A stretch of DNA of 64,000 bases from an uncultured virus (IMG/VR IMGVR_UViG_3300030060_006470) (taxonomy: Duplodnaviria > Heunggongvirae > Uroviricota > Caudoviricetes): the IMG/VR virus record IMGVR_UViG_3300030060_006470; one strand, written 5' to 3'. A program made the translations under genes and the position numbers. Position 1 is the first letter of the stretch; each line of letters begins with the position of its first letter. The notes beneath the pieces are model-generated. The model saw nothing but the letters and a program-made list of their open reading frames with translations. It searched no databases and was not told the origin of the DNA. Positions 4,138-57,090 of this stretch are shown here, piece by piece.

Positions 4138-4476
4138 ATGAAAAAAGTAGAAGCCATCATCAGGAAATCTCAGTTTGATGATGTGAAGACTGCGCTCATG
4201 AACGTTAAGGTAACTTTCTTTAGTTACTGGGATGTAACTGGGCACGGTAATGAGAAAACAGGACACGTTTATAGAGGCGTGGAATTCAGTACCAACGATA
4301 TTCAGCGAAGGTACTTATCAATAGTTGTTTCAGACGAATTTCTGGACCGAACTGTAAATGCCATATTAGACTCTGCTTGCACGGACAAGGTGGGTGATGG
4401 TAAGATATTTGTTTCCGATGTTCAGGAAGCGTATAGAATAAGAACCCGTGAAAGGGGAAATCAAACCTTAAACTAA
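4138..4476 (+). CDS. glnB: Nitrogen regulatory protein P-II (GlnB/GlnK family)
   Basis: MKKVEAIIR N-terminus, T-loop YRG, GDGKIFV, RIRTRERG; 112 aa; directly upstream of amtB. Confidence 0.95.
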   Translation: MKKVEAIIRKSQFDDVKTALMNVKVTFFSYWDVTGHGNEKTGHVYRGVEFSTNDIQRRYLSIVVSDEFLDRTVNAILDSACTDKVGDGKIFVSDVQEAYRIRTRERGNQTLN

Positions 4477-4483
4477 GAAAGAT

Positions 4484-5713
4484 ATGGAAATGTTAACAAC
4501 AAACAACATATGGATGATGATTTGTACTGGACTAGTATTTTTCATGCACCTAGGATTTTCATTCTTAGAGATTGGATTGACACGACAAAAGAATACAATT
4601 AATATTCTTTTCAAAAACATCTTCATCATTTGTATGGGGCTATTGGTCTACTATATCGGTGGATTTAACCTCATGTACCCAGGATTCGAAGATGGTGATT
4701 TAGGTATCTTAAAGTTTGCAGGTTTCGGAATTGATGCCCCTGTAAATGGTATGACTGCCGAGTATGCCAGTGGTGGTTACACATGGTGGACAGATTTCCT
4801 TTTCCAAGGAATGTTTGCCGCAACAGCCGCAACTATTGTTTCTGGCGCTGTAGCTGAAAGAATCAAGCTAACAAGCTTCATGTTATTCAGTTTAATTTAT
4901 GTTGGATTAGTATATCCAATAGTAGGTTCCTGGAAATGGGGCGGTGGATTCTTAGATAATCTAGGGTTCTATGACTTTGCTGGAAGTACCTTAGTTCACT
5001 CCGTTGGTGGATGGGCAGCTTTAGTGGCAGTATGGTTATTGGGTGCCAGAATTGGTAAATTTAAACTTGGAAAAACTATACCAATTTTTGGGCATAATAT
5101 CCCTTTCGCTACTGCGGGAGTATTGATTTTATGGTTAGGATGGTTTGGATTTAACGGTGGTTCAGTGCTTAGCGCAGACCCAGCATTAACATCACTAACG
5201 TTAGTCACCACTTGCCTTGCAGCCGCTGCTGGAGGTATAGGTGCCGCAATTACATCTTTTATTAAAGACAAGGCATTTGATTTAACAATGTTCTTGAACG
5301 GAATACTAGGTGGACTAGTTGCCATTACAGCAGGTGCAGACCAAATGTCTCCAAACGAATCGGTAGTTATCGGAATCATTGGAGGTATCTTAGTTGTACT
5401 TGTAGTATCTATGTTAGATAAACTCAAATTAGACGACCCAGTTGGTGCAATTGCAGTACACTTAGGTTGTGGAATATGGGGGACTTTAGCTGTAGGTATC
5501 TTTGGTAACATGGCTGGTGCTGGTCAATTCATGACACAACTTACAGGTGTTTTAGTTATTGGTGCTTTTTGTTTAGTTAGTTCTTTCTTGATTTTATTTG
5601 CTATCAAGAAAACTATGGGACTTAGAGTATCAAAAGAAGAAGAACTTGAAGGTTTAGATAACGCTGAACATGGTATGTCCGCATACCCTGACTTTAGGCT
5701 TAATCAACATTAA
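4484..5713 (+). CDS. amtB: Ammonium transporter
   Basis: FQGMFAATAATIVSGAVAER, DFAGSTLVH, GWFGFNGGS, DDPVGAIAVH; many hydrophobic segments. Confidence 0.97.
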   Translation: MEMLTTNNIWMMICTGLVFFMHLGFSFLEIGLTRQKNTINILFKNIFIICMGLLVYYIGGFNLMYPGFEDGDLGILKFAGFGIDAPVNGMTAEYASGGYTWWTDFLFQGMFAATAATIVSGAVAERIKLTSFMLFSLIYVGLVYPIVGSWKWGGGFLDNLGFYDFAGSTLVHSVGGWAALVAVWLLGARIGKFKLGKTIPIFGHNIPFATAGVLILWLGWFGFNGGSVLSADPALTSLTLVTTCLAAAAGGIGAAITSFIKDKAFDLTMFLNGILGGLVAITAGADQMSPNESVVIGIIGGILVVLVVSMLDKLKLDDPVGAIAVHLGCGIWGTLAVGIFGNMAGAGQFMTQLTGVLVIGAFCLVSSFLILFAIKKTMGLRVSKEEELEGLDNAEHGMSAYPDFRLNQH

Positions 5714-5771
5714 TAACATTAATAACATAAGGGGGTTAATCACCCCCTTTAATTTACATAAAAATTTAAAA

Positions 5772-6776
5772 ATGAAAAAATTAATTACAATCTTACTTGT
5801 TGTACTAGGTACGACATTTATTTACGGTCAAGATAGCTTGGCTACAGAAAAATCAAAACTTTCTTTTGAAGGAAGCGCTGACATTTATTACAGAAGGAAT
5901 TTAAGTACTTCAACTACTGACGTTGCACCTGCAACATCATTTGCCAATTTAAATGGTTTCTCATTAGGTATGTTTAACCTGGTTAGCTCTTATGATACAA
6001 AGAACACAGGATTCGTTGCTGACTTAGTATTTGGACCTCGTGGAGAAGATGCAGTATTCTTGTCTTCAGGTAGTTCTAATATCATCAATCAGTTATACGC
6101 TTACTGGGATGTTAATGACAACCTTACATTTACTATGGGTAACTTTAATACCTTCTTAGGTTATGAAGTTATTTCACCTACAGGAAACTTTAACTATTCA
6201 ACTAGTTATATGTTTTCTTATGGACCATTTTCACACAGTGGACTAAAGGCTGACTTTAATTTATCTGAGAATCTTACAGGTATGTTAGCTGTTTTAAACG
6301 CAACAGACGCTACTGAATACAACCCAACTAACCTAAACACATTAGGTGCTCAGTTAGGTTATAAGGACACGTATCTTAACGCACTTTATGGTAAACAAGA
6401 TTCTAGTTCCGAAGCTACTTTCCAAGTAGATTTAACAGCTGGTTATGATTTATCAGATAAGTTTTATTTAGGTATAAACACAACTTACAATGAAACTGAT
6501 GGTTCTGGATTCTATGGAGCGGCATTATACCCTCAATATAACTTCGGTAAATTAACCACTGGTTTAAGAGGAGAATATTTTGCTGAAACAGGTTCTGGAG
6601 TTGGAGCAATTGGCCCAGATGCGAATGTTATAAACTTTACCGCAACTTTGGATTACGCTATAGAGAATCTAAATCTAAAGTTAGAGTACAGGTTTGACAA
6701 AGCAAGCGAAAAAGTTTTTGAACAAAAGGATAACTTAGCCAGCATTGTATTAGCGGCGGTTTATTCTTTTGACTAA
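5772..6776 (+). CDS. Outer-membrane beta-barrel porin (Amt-associated type)
   Basis: Signal peptide MKKLITILLVVLG; GNFNTFLGYEVISP and YMFSYGPFSHSG motifs; aromatic C-terminus; real start 5772 rather than 5670. Confidence 0.85.
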   Translation: MKKLITILLVVLGTTFIYGQDSLATEKSKLSFEGSADIYYRRNLSTSTTDVAPATSFANLNGFSLGMFNLVSSYDTKNTGFVADLVFGPRGEDAVFLSSGSSNIINQLYAYWDVNDNLTFTMGNFNTFLGYEVISPTGNFNYSTSYMFSYGPFSHSGLKADFNLSENLTGMLAVLNATDATEYNPTNLNTLGAQLGYKDTYLNALYGKQDSSSEATFQVDLTAGYDLSDKFYLGINTTYNETDGSGFYGAALYPQYNFGKLTTGLRGEYFAETGSGVGAIGPDANVINFTATLDYAIENLNLKLEYRFDKASEKVFEQKDNLASIVLAAVYSFD

Positions 6777-6866
6777 AAAATGTGCTTTATAGATGAGTAT
6801 ATCGATGATTTAGCGGTAGATTCAATCATTGATAATCCATTAAATTATAAAATAAATTAGATTTTA

Positions 6867-6898
6867 TTTGGTAGAATGAAATAAAATTAATATATTTG
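6867..6898 (+). promoter_or_regulatory. Bacteroidota consensus promoter in front of the structured RNA
   Basis: TTTG-N20-TATATTTG. Confidence 0.75.
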
Positions 6899-6900
6899 AG

Positions 6901-7114
6901 AAACTCTCCAAGCTGACGGGGAAGCAAGTGAGTATTGGTAATCACTCCAGTTGAAAAAGAATAACAACCAGATTGTTATATCACAACACTACCAAGAAAG
7001 TGTTAGCTTTGACAGAAGATGCCTGACACTGGGATAAGAACCCAGCTCGTTTTGTAGGTGAAGATTGACGTTTAAGTAATCTACGTGGTATTCCACTTGG
7101 GGACTTGGAGAGTT
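6901..7114 (+). ncRNA. Unknown structured RNA family, copy 1
   Basis: 12-bp closing stem AAACTCTCCAAG/CTTGGAGAGTTT plus CAAGTG/CACTTG and AACACT/AGTGTT; conserved blocks recur at 7907 and 49505. Confidence 0.75.
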
Positions 7115-7131
7115 TTTAAAATATTTTAGAT

Positions 7132-7320
7132 ATGGATAATATAGAAAAAGAAATTATAAGAAGATTTAAGCCAAACACTAAATTCATATCATTGTTTGGT
7201 ACTAAGGATGAAGTAAATTTAAAAGATGAATACTACATAAAAAATGGGTGTGGTTTTGTTTTAGGTAAAAAAGAATTTAGAATGATTTATGACAACGGAT
7301 GGTGGGCAGACATTCTATAA
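7132..7320 (+). CDS. Hypothetical protein
   Basis: 62-aa ORF. Confidence 0.6.
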   Translation: MDNIEKEIIRRFKPNTKFISLFGTKDEVNLKDEYYIKNGCGFVLGKKEFRMIYDNGWWADIL

Positions 7321-7352
7321 GAGGACTTGGAGAGTTTTTAAAACATTTAGAT

Positions 7353-7544
7353 ATGGATAAAAATAAGATAAAAGAAAGATTAAGTGATTTAAGGGATGAA
7401 ATTTATAACGCAGAAGATGTGATAGATGGGGCTTATAATAGCAAAGACAAAAATTTCAAGGAGTACAAAGAAATAAACGTTAAATATGATGCTCTTTTAA
7501 AAGATATGAATAAGTTAGTTGGGCTGTTAAACGAGCTTGTTTAA
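7353..7544 (+). CDS. Hypothetical coiled-coil protein
   Basis: Start MDKNKIK in the same duplicated context as 7132. Confidence 0.6.
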   Translation: MDKNKIKERLSDLRDEIYNAEDVIDGAYNSKDKNFKEYKEINVKYDALLKDMNKLVGLLNELV

Positions 7545-7554
7545 AATATTTTAT

Positions 7555-7679
7555 GAGAGAATAGCTCAGTTGGTAGAGCAACCCTATCCTACTTAGTAGA
7601 AAATTGGATAGGTTGAGGATAGCGGTATACAGCTAAAATTGTAAAAAGGTTGCAGGTTCGAGTCCTGTTTTTCTCACCA
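7555..7679 (+). ncRNA. tRNA-like RNA with an expanded, branched anticodon region
   Basis: Acceptor GAGAGAA/TTTTCTC-A-CCA, D-arm GCTCAGTTGGTAGAGC, T-arm GCAGGTTCGAGTCCTGT; ~70-nt middle with no 7-nt anticodon loop. Confidence 0.75.
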
Positions 7680-7711
7680 AATTAATAACGTTCATTAAAA
7701 TATTGAAAATA

Positions 7712-7801
7712 AGTGGTGTAGCTCAGAAAGTATAGGAGCACCTAGCACGGTAACCAACCCGTGGGACGGAGGTACGTTGGGATGAACGCCAACCACCACT
7801 T
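7712..7801 (+). ncRNA. Atypical tRNA-like RNA
   Basis: Acceptor AGTGGTG/CACCACT, D-stem GCTC/GAGC, CACGG/CCGTG arm, T-stem GTTGG/CCAAC with a non-canonical loop. Confidence 0.6.
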
Positions 7802-7906
7802 TAATAAAGTAATATAGCAGAAAGTAACGGGGAGGTTCCGCACGGCAAGAGGTATCTTGAAAGACGTGAAACGCTTGATGCTGGTTGATACGACTATTAC
7901 TATTTT

Positions 7907-8100
7907 AAACTCTCCAAGCTAATGGATGAGCAAGTGAATACGCTTACAGTGCTAGGCTGTCTCAGGAGGAAACAACTCAGGTATCACAACACTCCAAGAA
8001 GTGTTAGCTTTGAAGTTAGATACTTTACAGGACAAGCTCTGCATTCCTTAACCATAGGAAGTATTTATGCGAGTATTCCACTTGGGGACTTGGAGAGTTT
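7907..8100 (+). ncRNA. Unknown structured RNA family, copy 2
   Basis: Same closing stem and conserved blocks as 6901-7114; 3' half nearly identical to copy 3. Confidence 0.75.
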
Positions 8101-8104
8101 TTAT

Positions 8105-8204
8105 GAGAGAATAAAGAGAAACAATACTGGACAGTTGGTAGCTCTAACGATTAGATAGCCATCAGATGGAAATCTTAATGTAGGTTCGATTCCTGCTTCT
8201 CTCA
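8105..8204 (+). ncRNA. tRNA-like RNA with degenerate D and anticodon regions
   Basis: Acceptor GAGAGAA/TTCTCTC-A, T-arm GTAGGTTCGATTCCTGC. Confidence 0.65.
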
Positions 8205-8477
8205 CATTTAAAATACGTGCTGTTTAATCAACAGCTAGTGTGATTACGCATGATGAGAAGGGTTATGATTTGACTCAGTAGTTGCTTGTATGGAGGTACG
8301 TTCCCTACCCGTATCAGACGGTCATGATTGAAAGGGGTCATTCCTGAATATTGAATTAAGAGTGTGAATCTGTTAGCCCTAACTTGAAACGCAATGCTTG
8401 GACGTTTGTCTCGGAGTAGTTGATGTTGACAGGACAGTCGTAAGATTGGGTGAATTTTAATTTAAACCAAAATAACT

Positions 8478-8651
8478 ATGAGTAAATTATACACACTAGA
8501 AGAGGTTAAAGAATTATGTATGATGGCATTTGATGATGGATTCGATGCTGGTCATTATGATGAACAAGAAAAAGATGGTAGTTGGTGGGTTAACAATAAC
8601 ACTACTAATATTCAAACTGTAAATACTAAAACTCAAAGTAAAGATGGATAA
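8478..8651 (+). CDS. Small hypothetical protein flanked by degenerate MSKE junction motifs
   Basis: TTTAAACCAAAATAACTATGAGTAAA at the start and CAAAGTAAAGATGGATAAAGAA at the end. Confidence 0.55.
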   Translation: MSKLYTLEEVKELCMMAFDDGFDAGHYDEQEKDGSWWVNNNTTNIQTVNTKTQSKDG

Positions 8652-11193: not shown

Positions 11194-12492
11194 ATGATAA
11201 ACTTTAAAGATTTAAAAAAAATATACAGACTGTTTAAAGATGTTAATATAACAGACATTATTTCCTTTGTGGAAAAGAATCCTAAATTATTAAAAAGTTT
11301 GGGTAAGGAAGAAAAGACAGAAGCCAATTATGATTCGGACTTCTATAACATATTCAATAACTTAACCAAAGAAGATAATGATTTAAGATTAAAGGTTAGG
11401 GCGTTTATGGAAAAAGATGTCAAACCTATTATCAACTACTATTGGTACATAGATGAATTCCCACATCAATTAATACCAAAGCTTAGAAAATTAGATATAT
11501 GTGGTTTATCCTACAAGGGTTATGGTTGCCAAAACAAATCTAGCCTATCAGAAGGCGTTGTAGCCGCTGAACTATCAAGAGTGGACCCTTCACTATCTAC
11601 ATTCATAGGTGTTCACTCAGGACTGGCTATGGGTTCTATTTATCTATGTGGTTCTGAAGAACAAAAACAGTATTGGTTACCAAAAATGAGAAGAATGGAG
11701 ACTATAGGTGCATTTGGACTAACCGAACCATTAGTTGGTTCTGGTGCTGCTGGAGGTCTAACCACCACTTGTGAAAGAAAGGGTGATAAATGGGTTTTAA
11801 ATGGCCAAAAGAAATGGATAGGCAACTCTACCTTTTCCGATATTACTATCATATGGGCTAGAGATGTTAGTGATAACCAGGTAAAGGGGTTTATTGTTGA
11901 AAAAAATAATGTAGGATTCTCAGTGGAGAAGATAGAGGGTAAGATATCCTTAAAAATTGTACAAAATGGACTTATCACATTAGATAATTGTATAGTAGAA
12001 GAAAAGAATAGACTACAAAATGCAAATTCATTTAAAGATACTAGTAGGGTGTTAAAAATGACCAGAGCAGGTGTGGCTTGGCAATCAGTAGGATTGAGCA
12101 TGGGAGCTTATGAAGCCACCGTTAAGTATTGTAACAGTAGAAAGCAATTCGGTAAAACAATAGATTCATTCCAACTAACACAATCTAATTTAGCTAACAT
12201 GTTAGGTGACTTAACAGCAATGCAGAATATGGTCTACCAATTATCTATATTACAAGACATTGGTCAAATGAAAGATGAACAAGCAAGCCTAGCTAAAGTG
12301 TGGATTACCAAAGCAATGAGAAGACTAGTGTCTACTGGTAGAGAATTGTTTGGTGGTAATGGTATTCTATTAGAATATGATATCGCTAAGTATATGGCTG
12401 ATGCTGAAGCATTATATAGTTACGAAGGTACGGCTCAAATTAATGAATTAATTGTGGGTAGAAGCATTACAGGTAAACAAGCATTTATATAA
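11194..12492 (+). CDS. Acyl-CoA dehydrogenase (glutaryl-CoA dehydrogenase-like)
   Basis: GAFGLTEPLVGS, LNGQKKWIGN, RKQFGK, GGNGILLEY, YSYEGT. Confidence 0.93.
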   Translation: MINFKDLKKIYRLFKDVNITDIISFVEKNPKLLKSLGKEEKTEANYDSDFYNIFNNLTKEDNDLRLKVRAFMEKDVKPIINYYWYIDEFPHQLIPKLRKLDICGLSYKGYGCQNKSSLSEGVVAAELSRVDPSLSTFIGVHSGLAMGSIYLCGSEEQKQYWLPKMRRMETIGAFGLTEPLVGSGAAGGLTTTCERKGDKWVLNGQKKWIGNSTFSDITIIWARDVSDNQVKGFIVEKNNVGFSVEKIEGKISLKIVQNGLITLDNCIVEEKNRLQNANSFKDTSRVLKMTRAGVAWQSVGLSMGAYEATVKYCNSRKQFGKTIDSFQLTQSNLANMLGDLTAMQNMVYQLSILQDIGQMKDEQASLAKVWITKAMRRLVSTGRELFGGNGILLEYDIAKYMADAEALYSYEGTAQINELIVGRSITGKQAFI

Positions 12493-49504: not shown

Positions 49505-49746
49505 AAACTCTCCAAGCTAATGGATGAGCAAGTGAAAAACAAGGTCGGCTCTTTGAGCTAAAGTCACAACACTACCATTTTTAGAGTAATAGGACAATAA
49601 GGATGAATAAATCGGCAATCCTCCCCTATTATAATGGTTCCAAGAGTGTTAGCTTTGAAGTTAGATACTTTACAGGACAAGCTCTGCATTCCTTAACCAT
49701 AGGAAGTATTTATGCGAGTATTCCACTTGGAGGACTTGGAGAGTTT
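49505..49746 (+). ncRNA. Unknown structured RNA family, copy 3
   Basis: Same closing stem and blocks as 6901/7907; ~70-nt insertion between AACACT and AGTGTT. Confidence 0.75.
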
Positions 49747-49750
49747 TTAT

Positions 49751-49908
49751 GAGAGAATGGCGAAATTGGTAAACGCAGGTGTGGTCAAAGCCTATATGGA
49801 TGGGTGTGTGAATAATGAATAGCACATTCTTAGCTCATGGTAAGAACTACCTAACTAATAACAGCTAAACGTAATTTAGTATTGCAGGTTCGAGTCCTGT
49901 TTCTCTCA
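49751..49908 (+). ncRNA. tRNA-like RNA with a very large branched insertion
   Basis: Acceptor GAGAGAA/TTCTCTC-A, D-arm GGCGAAATTGGTAAACGC, T-arm GCAGGTTCGAGTCCTGT; 158 nt. Confidence 0.7.
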
Positions 49909-50007
49909 CTAATTAACAAACATATGGTGTTTGTTTTTTTTTAAAATAAATTTGGTAGAATGAAATAAATTTCTTATATTTACATTCTAACATTAAAACA
50001 CTATAAA

Positions 50008-56987: not shown

Positions 56988-57090
56988 AATGTTACTGTTT
57001 TAAAGTTAGATTACTAAGTTAATAAATTTATTTCATTCAACAAAATTTAATATACACATTTGTGTATATATGTGTGAGGGGAAAGAAGGA

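What the first reader, a model, noticed from the sequence alone, without database searches (positions are those of the whole stretch)
6901..8100. Three-copy structured RNA with a constant scaffold and interchangeable loops
Seen: copies at 6901-7114, 7907-8100 and 49505-49746 share AAACTCTCCAAGCT...GCAAGTGA...TCACAACACT...AGTGTTAGCTTTGA...GTATTCCACTTGG.GACTTGGAGAGTTT. The three intervening segments vary in sequence and length, although copies 2 and 3 share the third. Stems are the 12-bp closing helix, CAAGTG/CACTTG, GTGA/TCAC and AACACT/AGTGTT, plus an alternative AAGCTRA/TTAGCTT pairing that suggests a switch or pseudoknot. Copy 1 starts right after a perfect TTTG-N20-TATATTTG promoter. I do not recognise the family. 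A scaffold with variable loops suggests a guide, sponge or decoy RNA (inference).
Basis: partly seen in the sequence, partly recalled or inferred. Interest (0 to 1): 0.78.

Follow-up and report, generated by a model that had tools for sequence, protein, structure and literature searches.

The report
Phage scaffold RNA with swappable inserts
A large marine phage carries three copies of an undescribed small folded RNA whose core is almost invariant while two or three built-in sockets hold completely different, exchangeable RNA domains; what it does is not yet known.

Summary
Three + strand copies (6901-7115, 7907-8100, 49505-49746) share a constant core; no Rfam 15 family matches. I found 52 distinct copies in marine viral and metagenome contigs, and none in 50,697 deposited phage records or in one genome for each of 185,579 prokaryote species. 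Covariation supports a 12-13 bp closing helix, with G.U pairs on the + strand. It also supports an H-type pseudoknot between the loop of hairpin P4 and CUUGR beside the 3' arm (C.G 33, U.A 12, U.G 7, C.A 0 of 52). Two helices, and in copy 3 the P4 loop, act as sockets for unrelated inserts: 93 slots fall into 61 sequence clusters, and some inserts recur in other copies and other sockets. The carriers are huge T4-core phages. Copies lie among tRNA-like genes, and 10 of 48 are followed within 8 nt by one. Metatranscriptome contigs from three studies cover copy 2 and its upstream RNAs. Best reading (inferred): a stable carrier RNA, processed with its tRNA-like neighbours, whose inserts supply specificity. 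Rivals are a core-only function, a cis-acting 3'-end element and a recombination linker. The closest analogues are T4 RNAC/RNAD and GOLLD/ROOL.

The parts
6867..6898 (+). Promoter-like site (TTTG, 20 nt, TATATTTG) ending 2 nt before copy 1
   Evidence: Sequence. The 19-nt 5' part recurs 8 times in the window against 0.19 expected. The same motif precedes RNA X plus a scaffold copy in L001. That this is the Bacteroidota promoter type is recalled, not tested.
6901..7115 (+). Scaffold RNA copy 1 (V1 50 nt, V2 81 nt, both unique to this copy)
   Evidence: R1 scores 130.5 bits.
7321..7339 (+). Solo 3' arm (GAGGACUUGGAGAGUUUUU) with the same downstream leader as copy 1; probably a recombination scar
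   Evidence: In L170 a complete copy sits directly before the homologue of the ORF that follows here.
7555..7676 (+). tRNA-like gene A, acceptor GAGAGAA/UUCUCUC, with 66 nt where a tRNA has 17
   Evidence: Rfam tRNA 43.8 bits. ARAGORN does not call it. Fold.
7712..7800 (+). tRNA-like cloverleaf B, at the start of the RNA-library contigs
   Evidence: The minimum-energy fold is a cloverleaf. RNA contigs begin at 7702, 7721 and 7725. No Rfam hit.
7808..7903 (+). RNA X, a second undescribed structured RNA directly upstream of copy 2
   Evidence: 7 sequences, 30 predicted pairs, 5 of them with compensatory changes. It precedes 7 of 48 copies.
7907..8100 (+). Scaffold RNA copy 2, used as the reference copy
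   Evidence: R1 scores 157.3 bits. RNA-library contigs cover 7907-8022.
7907..7918 (+). P1 5' arm (pairs with 8089-8100)
   Evidence: 13 alignment pairs, 97.8% of cells paired, 8 pairs with changes on both sides, 6 G.U/U.G cells.
7919..7933 (+). Conserved junction J1/3 (CUAAUGGAUGAGCAA)
   Evidence: Nearly invariant in 39 and in 52 sequences.
7934..7987 (+). P3 (GUGA/UCAC) holding socket V1 (7938-7983)
   Evidence: P3 is invariant. The next pair inward covaries: U.A 22, A.U 6, U.G 6, so 35 of 46 are paired.
7989..8004 (+). P4 hairpin (ACACU/AGUGU); its loop CCAAG (7994-7998) is the 5' strand of the pseudoknot
8005..8018 (+). Conserved junction J4/6 (UAGCUUUGAAGUUA)
8019..8077 (+). P6 (GAUA/UAUU) holding socket V2 (8023-8073), here a cloverleaf-like three-hairpin domain
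   Evidence: The closing register is 90% paired. This insert family has 21 pairs, 5 of them compensatory.
8081..8085 (+). Pseudoknot 3' strand (CUUGG)
   Evidence: The variable pair is C.G 33, U.A 12, U.G 7, C.A 0 of 52.
8089..8100 (+). P1 3' arm, running into a U-run
   Evidence: 32 of 48 copies have a U-run of 5 or more, counting the UUU of P1.
8105..8207 (+). tRNA-like gene C, starting 4 nt after copy 2, with the same acceptor stem
   Evidence: Weak Rfam tRNA hit at 8118-8204, 16 bits. Fold.
49505..49746 (+). Scaffold RNA copy 3: same V2 as copy 2, a different V1, and a third insert (71-nt P4 loop)
   Evidence: R1 scores 142.4 bits.
49751..49908 (+). tRNA-like gene D, 4 nt after copy 3, same acceptor stem, long internal insertion
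   Evidence: Sequence. Not called by ARAGORN or Rfam.

Best explanation
This is a real, previously undescribed family of phage-encoded small structured RNAs, 161-246 nt long. It is read from the + strand of huge marine phages that have a T4-type core gene set. SHOWN: the core has a 12-13 bp closing helix P1 and two nearly invariant junction strands. It also has hairpin P4, whose loop pairs with CUUGR just inside the 3' arm of P1 to form an H-type pseudoknot. Two short helices, P3 and P6, and in copy 3 the P4 loop, serve as sockets for unrelated folded inserts. Inserts are exchanged between copies and between sockets. INFERRED: the RNA is made from phage promoters as part of polycistronic clusters of non-coding and tRNA-like RNAs. 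Its ends are set by the tRNA-type processing of its neighbours, with RNase P cutting at the tRNA-like gene that starts 4-5 nt downstream. The knotted core with both ends locked in P1 acts as a stable carrier and probably binds one conserved partner. The interchangeable inserts supply specificity in trans, as decoys or sponges for host or rival RNA-binding factors, or through exposed loops. The rapid turnover of inserts then reflects an arms race. The confidence given is for the whole statement, function included; for the identity and the outline of the fold alone I would say about 0.9.
For: Family and strand:
- 52 distinct copies from 46 sources score 102-164 bits.
- P1 has 8 pairs with compensatory change and 6 G.U/U.G cells, which would be A.C mismatches on the other strand.
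- All three window copies point the same way as the flanking genes and tRNA-like genes.

Pseudoknot:
- The variable pair is C.G 33, U.A 12, U.G 7, C.A 0 of 52, with Fisher p = 2.4e-7, not corrected for relatedness.
- About 7.6 C.A combinations would be expected if the two sites were independent.
- Two-copy loci that carry both states keep each copy self-consistent.
- Loop lengths are classical: 0-1 nt before and 0-2 nt after the pairing strand.
- The model used for the alignment did not contain this pairing.
- Over the whole structure 98.8% of cells pair, and 0 of 500 shuffles reach any of the five measures.

Core under selection:
- L178, L157 and L145 changed up to 5 P1 pairs compensatorily while the junctions, P3 and P4 stayed identical.

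Inserts:
- 93 slots fall into 61 clusters.
- One insert family occurs in V1, V2 and the P4 loop, and another in V1 and V2.
- Insert families show compensatory changes: 5 of 21 pairs in the cloverleaf-like V2, and 1 each in three others.
- One V1 insert recurs at 91% identity inside a different hairpin frame in L178.

Not coding: 3 of 52 copies have a through ORF.

Expression:
- RNA-library contigs from 3 of the 4 studies laid cover 7702/7721/7725-8022, that is tRNA-like B, RNA X and the first 115 nt of copy 2.
- In two of those runs nothing else in the 1.7 kb is covered.

Context:
- 10 of 48 copies are followed within 8 nt by a tRNA-like gene, 7 of 48 are preceded by RNA X, and a promoter-like site abuts copy 1.
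Against: - No tool result bears on stability, processing sites, partners or targets.
- The RNA evidence is from assembled contigs, which show neither ends nor strand and may include DNA carry-over.
- No RNA-related partner gene lies near the copies: 143 window ORFs and 125 ORFs of a related 172-kb contig gave no RT, recombinase, Ro, RtcB or Cas hit, only an S1-domain protein far away.
- Inserts share no k-mer above shuffles, and their folding energy is only mildly better than shuffled sequence, mean z = -0.94. Many may therefore be neutral.
- The inserts of copies 1 and 2 gave no listed match in 401 Bacteroidota genomes, so mimicry of a host RNA is not visible at BLAST level. Only 150 of 504 matches were listed.
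- The rival pairing CAAGUG/CACUUG is also 96% compatible and is extended to 11 bp in one copy.
- 32 of 48 copies end in a U-run of 5 or more, as terminators do.
- Near-identity of the core could partly reflect gene conversion between copies.
Confidence: 0.35

Rival explanations
1. Core-only function. The invariant pseudoknotted core is the working part: it binds one conserved protein or small ligand, or is a new self-cleaving or processing ribozyme that punctuates the polycistronic transcript. V1 and V2 are then merely tolerated peripheral helices that drift and recombine.
For: - The junction strands, P3 and P4 are identical even in copies whose P1 changed at up to 5 pairs. This is the pattern of ribozyme and aptamer cores.
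- Inserts share no motif above shuffles and fold only slightly better than shuffled sequence.
- Copies sit exactly at junctions between RNAs that must be separated.
Against: - No known ribozyme or riboswitch family matched, even at E up to 10.
- Contigs from RNA libraries run uninterrupted across the 5' boundary at 7907. This does not exclude partial cleavage.
- Insert families keep their own pairings by compensatory change, and identical inserts are reused in different sockets and in another hairpin frame. Neutral filler does not explain this.
- Downstream genes are diverse, so a riboswitch role is unlikely.
Confidence: 0.2
2. Cis-acting 3'-end element. P1 plus its U-run acts as an intrinsic terminator or as a block to 3' exonucleases, with a large folded domain in place of a loop. 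It insulates and stabilises neighbouring cistrons and has no action in trans.
For: - 32 of 48 copies have a U-run of 5 or more, counting the UUU of P1.
- The 5' flank is A-rich, so P1 can extend to 16 bp.
- 38 of 48 copies have a stop triplet within 12 nt upstream.
- The copy whose P1 lacks U's (L145) is followed by a canonical terminator hairpin.
- A plain terminator hairpin at 49915-49942 carries a folded insertion of about 85 nt in relatives. This shows that terminator stems in these phages can host inserts.
Against: - 10 of 48 copies are followed within 8 nt by a tRNA-like gene that has no room for its own promoter, so read-through is needed there.
- A terminator or stability hairpin does not need about 60 invariant unpaired nucleotides and a covarying pseudoknot.
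- Copy 1 sits at the start of a transcription unit, right after a promoter-like site, not at its end.
Confidence: 0.2
3. DNA-level element. The constant blocks are recombination linkers, like the repeated promoter stem-loops of T4-type hyperplastic regions (recalled, not checked), or the ends of a small mobile element. The RNA fold is incidental.
For: - V1 and V2 combinations are reshuffled between copies: copies 2 and 3 share V2, and copy 2 shares V1 with L130 and L132.
- A solo 3' arm with a duplicated leader and ORF start at 7321-7362 looks like a recombination scar.
- The window region consists of small + strand ORFs with a repeated promoter motif.
Against: - G.U wobble pairs occur on one strand only.
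- C.A is never seen at the pseudoknot pair although V2 exchange separates the two sites.
- No target-site duplications are visible in the flanks.
- All copies are co-oriented with their neighbours.
- RNA-library contigs pick out this stretch.
- Recombination at the constant blocks fits an RNA function and does not replace it.
Confidence: 0.08

Closest known systems
Phage T4 small stable RNAs RNAC (species 1, 139 nt) and RNAD (species 2, 119 nt)
   Same: They are encoded by a phage with the T4 core gene set and lie directly beside tRNA genes, in the order tRNA-Arg, rnaD, rnaC with 1-6 nt spacers. They are of similar size, and their roles are unknown (passages read in PMC3014915 and PMC9697503). 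T4 rnaC folds with a closing stem and a T-arm, like the tRNA-like RNAs that flank the scaffold here.
   Different: No detectable homology: the best R1 score in the T4 tRNA region is 8.2 bits, and not at rnaC or rnaD. The T4 record annotates one copy of each RNA. I did not compare T4 relatives for variable sockets or a covarying pseudoknot. The family here has 1-3 copies per contig with different inserts.
GOLLD and ROOL large ornate RNAs
   Same: They are phage- or prophage-associated, often next to tRNAs and possibly co-transcribed with them. They are complex pseudoknotted folds of unknown function (passage read in PMC5737381).
   Different: They are much larger; ROOL averages 581 nt. No Rfam GOLLD or ROOL hit in the window. 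They are known from other hosts (recalled). Homo-oligomeric cages are reported for them (seen only in a search-listing abstract), and nothing here tests oligomerisation. Cassette-like exchange of inserts between fixed sockets is not among their described properties in the passages I read.
Bacterial and phage Y RNAs (YrlA type)
   Same: They have a closing stem formed by the 5' and 3' ends and a modular build with a tRNA-like domain, and they occur in some phages (only the abstract of PMC4201824 was seen in a listing; the rest is recalled).
   Different: No Rfam Y RNA hit. No TROVE/Ro or RtcB gene was found among the ORFs scanned in the window or in the 172-kb relative.
Engineered tRNA-scaffold RNAs and herpesvirus tRNA-linked pre-miRNA transcripts (recalled analogies)
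   Same: A stable, processing-competent carrier presents an unrelated RNA domain, and tRNA-processing enzymes release the units.
   Different: These are analogies from memory only. They come from a different domain of life, and nothing here was tested against them.

Membership tests
Any Rfam 15 family | Match to a curated covariance model at its gathering score | tested here: not met
   The whole window at gathering threshold gave only tRNA at 7555-7676. Region 6700-8400 at E up to 10 gave no hit on any copy. Twenty related loci at E up to 0.1 gave only tRNA and tmRNA.
T4 RNAC/RNAD | Sequence and structure homology to T4 rnaC or rnaD | tested here: not met
   R1 with filters off over the T4 tRNA region scored at best 8.2 bits, elsewhere in the locus.
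T4 RNAC/RNAD | Small RNA encoded within the tRNA gene cluster of a T4-type phage | tested here: met
   Copies abut tRNA-like genes. A relative contig has Gp23, T4 portal, T4 baseplate and Terminase_6N.
tRNA / tRNA-like structure | Cloverleaf with D and T arms recognised by tRNA models | tested here: not met
   ARAGORN and the Rfam tRNA model do not hit the scaffold. Only some inserts look tRNA-like: one V2 family has a T-arm-like hairpin.
Intrinsic terminator | Stem directly followed by a U-run | tested here: inconclusive
   32 of 48 copies have a U-run of 5 or more. However, the 'loop' is 140-220 nt and 10 of 48 copies are followed at once by a tRNA-like gene. The consensus scan does not call P1.
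MITE / small transposon | Terminal inverted repeats with flanking target-site duplication, in either orientation | tested here: not met
   Inverted arms are present. No duplication is visible in the flanks listed. Orientation is constant relative to neighbours. The arms hold G.U pairs.
IS110-type bridge RNA / retron ncRNA / guide RNAs of Cas, TnpB or IscB | Adjacent recombinase, reverse transcriptase or nuclease gene | tested here: not met
   No such Pfam family among 143 window ORFs or among 125 ORFs of the 172-kb relative.
Known self-cleaving ribozyme classes | Match to the class model; cleavage activity | tested here: not met
   No Rfam ribozyme hit at E up to 10. Activity cannot be tested with these tools.
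Protein-coding gene | Open frame kept across copies | tested here: not met
   3 of 52 copies have an ORF from the internal AUG through at least 85% of the element.

The most novel reading that the evidence does not exclude
A natural cassette-display RNA. The invariant knotted core is a plug-in chassis, and its constant blocks double as recombination sites. Through these, huge marine phages shuffle a large pool of small folded RNA domains (aptamer-like, tRNA-like, pseudoknotted) between sockets and genomes. This would give each phage a custom set of RNA decoys or binders in its arms race with host defences. It would be an RNA counterpart of protein diversity cassettes.
Probability: 0.22. Interest if true: 0.88.

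Novelty: new variant of a known kind. Interest (0 to 1): 0.68.

Why it matters
Phage small RNAs encoded next to tRNAs have lacked a function for decades. T4 RNAC and RNAD are examples, as are GOLLD and ROOL. This family adds a compact case of about 100 core nucleotides. It has a clear fold, many natural variants and a built-in experiment: the same core carries dozens of different inserts, and the same insert appears in different sockets.

If the inserts are the working parts, the family would be the first natural RNA display scaffold. It would also be a source of ready-made stable carriers and of small RNA binders. If the core is the working part, it is a candidate new ribozyme or RNP core. 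Either way it marks an unexplored region, rich in non-coding RNA, in huge marine phages that also carry nitrogen-uptake genes.

Tried and rejected
- **Whole genome and earlier findings:** neither was available.
- **14-mer scan of viral contigs:** it was too unspecific. It returned 119 or more loci that I took for mostly chance hits and did not inspect one by one.
- **Viral scan with the 5' block:** 14 loci, of which 6 are true copies and 8 are chance matches inside other sequence.
- **Genome-contig scan:** 1 hit, a chance match in what looks like coding sequence of a Bacteroidales MAG. R1 found nothing in that genome.
- **BLAST of 6899-8470 against 401 Bacteroidota genomes:** all 150 listed matches lay at query 449-772, that is ORF2 and tRNA-like A. 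None lay on a scaffold copy. A further 354 matches were not listed.
- **Deposited phage records:** no match to 6700-8400. Copy 2 alone gave only a 21-nt chance match.
- **Inserts against the window and all held loci:** nothing outside scaffold copies, except one insert in L178 and a T-arm-like 14-mer.
- **Shared motif among inserts:** 'GAAUAAR' caught my eye, but no k-mer exceeds shuffles.
- **P2 (GCUAA/UUAGC):** my first count used a wrong register. By eye it is invariant, with 3 G.U-compatible changes, 1 mismatch and 2 insertions. It is unresolved and I do not claim it.
- **D-arm-like hairpin GCU/AGC in J1/3:** only wobble-compatible changes, so unresolved.
- **Hammerhead-like CUGAUG in 3 copies:** most copies have CUAAUG, so I rejected it.
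- **Coding reading:** rejected.
- **RNA-library cover of copy 1 and of the 3' part of copy 2:** no contig lay there. This shows nothing either way.
- **Literature:** six searches found nothing on this RNA. The one paper on bacterial tRNA mimics whose outline I read concerns other motifs.
- **CRISPR-repeat mimicry, T4 RegB-type GGAG sites and K-turns:** considered from memory and dropped without a test.
Full report
**1. Observation**

The three copies are real. They lie on the + strand at 6901-7115, 7907-8100 and 49505-49746. Copies 2 and 3 have an identical 65-nt third variable segment.

The arm motif occurs 12 times in the window at up to 2 mismatches, against 2.39 expected. The six arms of the three copies account for six of these. 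A solo 3' arm at 7325-7337 is a seventh. Each copy's minimum-energy fold keeps the 12-bp closing helix, with z = -1.9 to -2.8 against shuffles.

Rfam 15 gives no hit on any copy, either at gathering score or at E up to 10.

**2. The family outside the window**

- A 5'-block pattern found 6 true copies among 14 loci in IMG/VR.
- A central-block pattern found 61 stretches in metagenome contigs. Many are Tara Oceans or other marine records by their names.
- A covariance model (R1) built from 39 sequences finds 69 strong matches in 62 loci. It also gives 17 weak opposite-strand echoes of 27 bits or less.
- It finds 52 distinct full copies in 46 sources.
- In the window it finds only the three copies, at 130-157 bits on the + strand and 18-19 bits on the - strand.
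- The family was not found in 50,697 deposited phage records.
- A scan of one genome for each of 185,579 prokaryote species gave one hit, a chance match.
- DNA runs that hold the stretch are labelled marine or seawater metagenome.

**3. Fold**

*P1.* On the model-fitted alignment of 52 sequences, P1 has 13 pairs and 97.8% of cells paired. Eight pairs changed on both sides, for example CCAAG/CUUGG to CCAACG/CGUUGG, UUCAAUG/CAUUGAA, CCUCAAUG/CAUUGAGG and CAACCCAAG/CUUGGGUUG. Six cells are G.U or U.G. The wobble pairs point to RNA read from the + strand.

*P3 and P4.* P3 (GUGA/UCAC) and P4 (ACACU/AGUGU) never vary, so they are compatible but unproven. The pair that continues P3 into V1 covaries: U.A 22, A.U 6, U.G 6.

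*Pseudoknot.* The 6-nt P4 loop reads N-YCAAG, and a CUUGR follows V2. The Y and R positions pair as C.G 33, U.A 12, U.G 7 and C.A 0 of 52.
- The two sites are separated by the exchangeable V2. About 7.6 C.A combinations would therefore be expected without selection.
- Loci with two copies in different states keep each copy self-consistent.
- The geometry is that of a classical H-type pseudoknot: 0-1 nt before and 0-2 nt after the pairing strand.
- The model did not contain this pairing, so the alignment is not fitted to it.

*Whole structure.* 98.8% of cells pair, 9 pairs have two-sided changes, and 0 of 500 shuffles reach any of the five measures. Slid controls give 21-46% paired.

One copy extends it to 11 bp. 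It competes with the pseudoknot for CUUG. I cannot exclude two alternative states. AAGCURA/UUAGCUU has no support, and two copies carry an insertion within it.

*V2 closure.* V2 is closed by GRUA/UAUU, with 90% of cells paired.

**4. Sockets and inserts**

V1 is 20-77 nt and V2 is 37-112 nt. In copy 3 the P4 loop grows to 71 nt.

- The 93 slots of 46 copies fall into 61 sequence clusters.
- The insert with the loop GAAUAAAUCGGCA occurs in V1 (5 times), V2 (2 times) and the P4 loop of window copy 3. A viral scan for it found it only inside scaffold copies, 2 of 2.
- Another insert occurs in both V1 and V2.
- One V1 insert recurs at 91% identity in L178 inside a different hairpin frame.
- Combinations are reshuffled. 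Copy 2 shares V1 with L130 and L132 but not V2, and shares V2 with copy 3 but not V1.
- Insert families keep their own pairings. The three-hairpin, cloverleaf-like V2 of copies 2 and 3 and its relatives has 21 pairs, of which 5 are compensatory and 4 are one-sided changes.
- Inserts share no k-mer above shuffles.
- They fold only a little better than shuffled sequence, mean z = -0.94.
- They gave no match of E 0.05 or better elsewhere in the window, beyond short 14-17 nt matches.
- The element is not coding: 3 of 52 copies have a through ORF.

**5. Carrier and context**

A 172-kb viral contig with one copy encodes the following:
- Gp23-type capsid, T4 portal, T4 baseplate and T4-type terminase;
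- a clamp loader, a split family-B polymerase and a RecA-like protein;
- topoisomerase II, ribonucleotide reductase, PhoH and an S1-domain protein;
- an ammonium transporter and an OmpL-like porin, right beside the copy.

The window has the same P-II, Amt and porin genes just upstream of copy 1. CheckV estimates for related contigs are 29% complete at 103 kb and 67% complete at 172 kb. These imply genomes of about 250-350 kb.

The capsid protein is closest to an uncultured 462-kb phage (47.6% identity). Next come the Prevotella Lak phages at 33.6%. A Bacteroidota host is therefore an inference. The promoter-like motif also points that way, but I recall its type and did not test it.

The window around the copies is a run of small + strand ORFs with a repeated promoter-like motif: 8 sites against 0.19 expected. 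One of these sites ends 2 nt before copy 1.

Context of the copies:
- 10 of the 48 copies with downstream flank are followed within 8 nt by a tRNA-like gene.
- 7 of the 48 with upstream flank are directly preceded by RNA X.
- 32 of 48 end in a U-run of 5 or more.

The tRNA-like genes share the acceptor stem GAGAGAA/UUCUCUC. ARAGORN either misses them or reports them with abnormal anticodon loops. RNA X is a second structured RNA of about 95 nt, with 5 compensatory pairs among 7 sequences.

**6. RNA evidence**

Six metatranscriptome runs hold about a tenth of the words of 6780-8480. I laid four of them, each from a different study.

- Three have a contig of 320-358 nt covering 7702/7721/7725 to 8022. 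That span is tRNA-like B, RNA X and the first 115 nt of copy 2.
- In two of the three, each contig then continues for 56 nt into a different V2 insert, one that is also found in L161, L174 and L186.
- In two of these runs nothing else in the 1.7 kb is covered.

This selective cover suggests an abundant RNA in close relatives. Contigs show neither ends nor strand, and DNA carry-over is possible. I therefore count it as moderate support for transcription and none for processing.

**7. What it most likely is and does**

*Shown:* a conserved, pseudoknotted small RNA family with fixed sockets for exchangeable folded inserts, in huge marine phages with a T4-type core, embedded in clusters of tRNA-like RNAs.

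*Inferred:* it is transcribed from phage promoters within polycistronic non-coding units. It is released by the tRNA-processing enzymes that act on its neighbours. The core, with both ends locked in P1 and a knot beside it, gives stability and probably a common partner. The inserts give specificity.

I put about 0.9 on the identity and the fold outline, and about 0.35 on the carrier-with-cargo function.

*Rivals:*
- Core-only function, including a new ribozyme: 0.2.
- A cis-acting terminator or 3'-end protector: 0.2.
- A purely DNA-level recombination linker: 0.08.

The solo 3' arm at 7321-7339 has a duplicated leader and ORF start. In L170 a complete copy sits before the homologue of that ORF. 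So the constant blocks do take part in recombination, whatever else they do.

**8. Comparison with what is known**

The nearest analogues are T4 RNAC and RNAD.
- They lie directly after tRNA-Arg in T4.
- Their roles are unknown (passages in PMC3014915 and PMC9697503).
- T4 rnaC folds with a T-arm and a closing stem, as the flanking tRNA-like RNAs do here.
- R1 finds no homology to either, and neither is an Rfam family.

GOLLD and ROOL share the link to phages and tRNAs and the unknown function (passage in PMC5737381). They are far larger and are not matched here.

Six literature searches, one of them for the sequence motifs themselves, found no description of this RNA. Supplementary files of motif catalogues were not opened and could hold it.

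**9. Verdict**

This is a genuine and apparently undescribed phage RNA family with an unusual cassette-like organisation. Its function is open.

Noticed in passing
window 7808-7903 (also L130, L153, L161, L174, L183, L195): RNA X, a conserved multi-stem RNA of about 95 nt directly upstream of scaffold copies. 30 pairs are predicted and 5 have compensatory changes in 7 sequences. No Rfam hit. In L001 it follows the promoter-like motif directly.
   Followed up: partly
window 7555-7676, 8105-8207, 49751-49908; relatives in L153, L163, L166, L167, L169, L173, L191, L195: A family of tRNA-like genes sharing one acceptor stem (GAGAGAA/UUCUCUC). Their bodies differ, and their anticodon regions are abnormal or greatly expanded. 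ARAGORN reports 2- or 4-letter 'anticodons' or misses them. They may be processing handles or decoys rather than decoding tRNAs.
   Followed up: partly
window 7712-7800: Another cloverleaf-folding RNA, with a hairpin-in-stem in place of the anticodon arm and an 8-nt 'T loop'. It is not recognised by Rfam or ARAGORN. RNA-library contigs start at its 5' edge.
   Followed up: partly
window 7321-7362 versus 7099-7140: A solo 3' arm of the scaffold with the same U-run, leader and ATGGATAA start as the sequence after copy 1. It looks like a scar of cassette insertion by recombination at the constant block.
   Followed up: partly
window 6867, 32704, 45308, 45982, 46679, 49951, 51397 (+) and 57027-57045 (-): A repeated 19-nt promoter-like motif, TTTGGTAGAATGAAATAAA (8 sites against 0.19 expected). 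It also occurs after scaffold copies in L155, L160, L176 and L192. It is likely a phage promoter class.
   Followed up: partly
window 4138-6776; L220 1828-4149: The phage carries P-II (GlnK-like), an ammonium transporter and an OmpL-like porin in a row. The transporter-porin pair is also present in a 172-kb relative, and the porin in L001 and L223. These are candidate nitrogen-uptake auxiliary genes.
   Followed up: partly
window 49915-49942; L132, L152, L155, L163 downstream flanks: A plain terminator hairpin (AACAAACA, 5-nt loop, UGUUUGUU, U-run) in the window carries a folded insertion of about 85 nt between the same arms in relatives. This is a second case of a constant stem hosting an insert.
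   Followed up: partly
window 8210-8470: About 260 nt without an ORF between tRNA-like C and the next gene. One RNA-library contig from a diverged relative covers 8210-8379. It may hold further small RNAs.
   Followed up: no
window 11194-12492: An acyl-CoA dehydrogenase with all three domains, encoded among small phage ORFs. This is an unusual auxiliary gene.
   Followed up: no
L143 178-584: A relative encodes a tmRNA (Rfam 66.9 bits; tag peptide AEANAILAAPVAMAA) about 0.8 kb upstream of its scaffold copy.
   Followed up: no
L217 6649-7770 (record G002): A phage-encoded 374-aa protein with S1 RNA-binding domains. It is the only RNA-binding candidate seen in the 172-kb relative.
   Followed up: no
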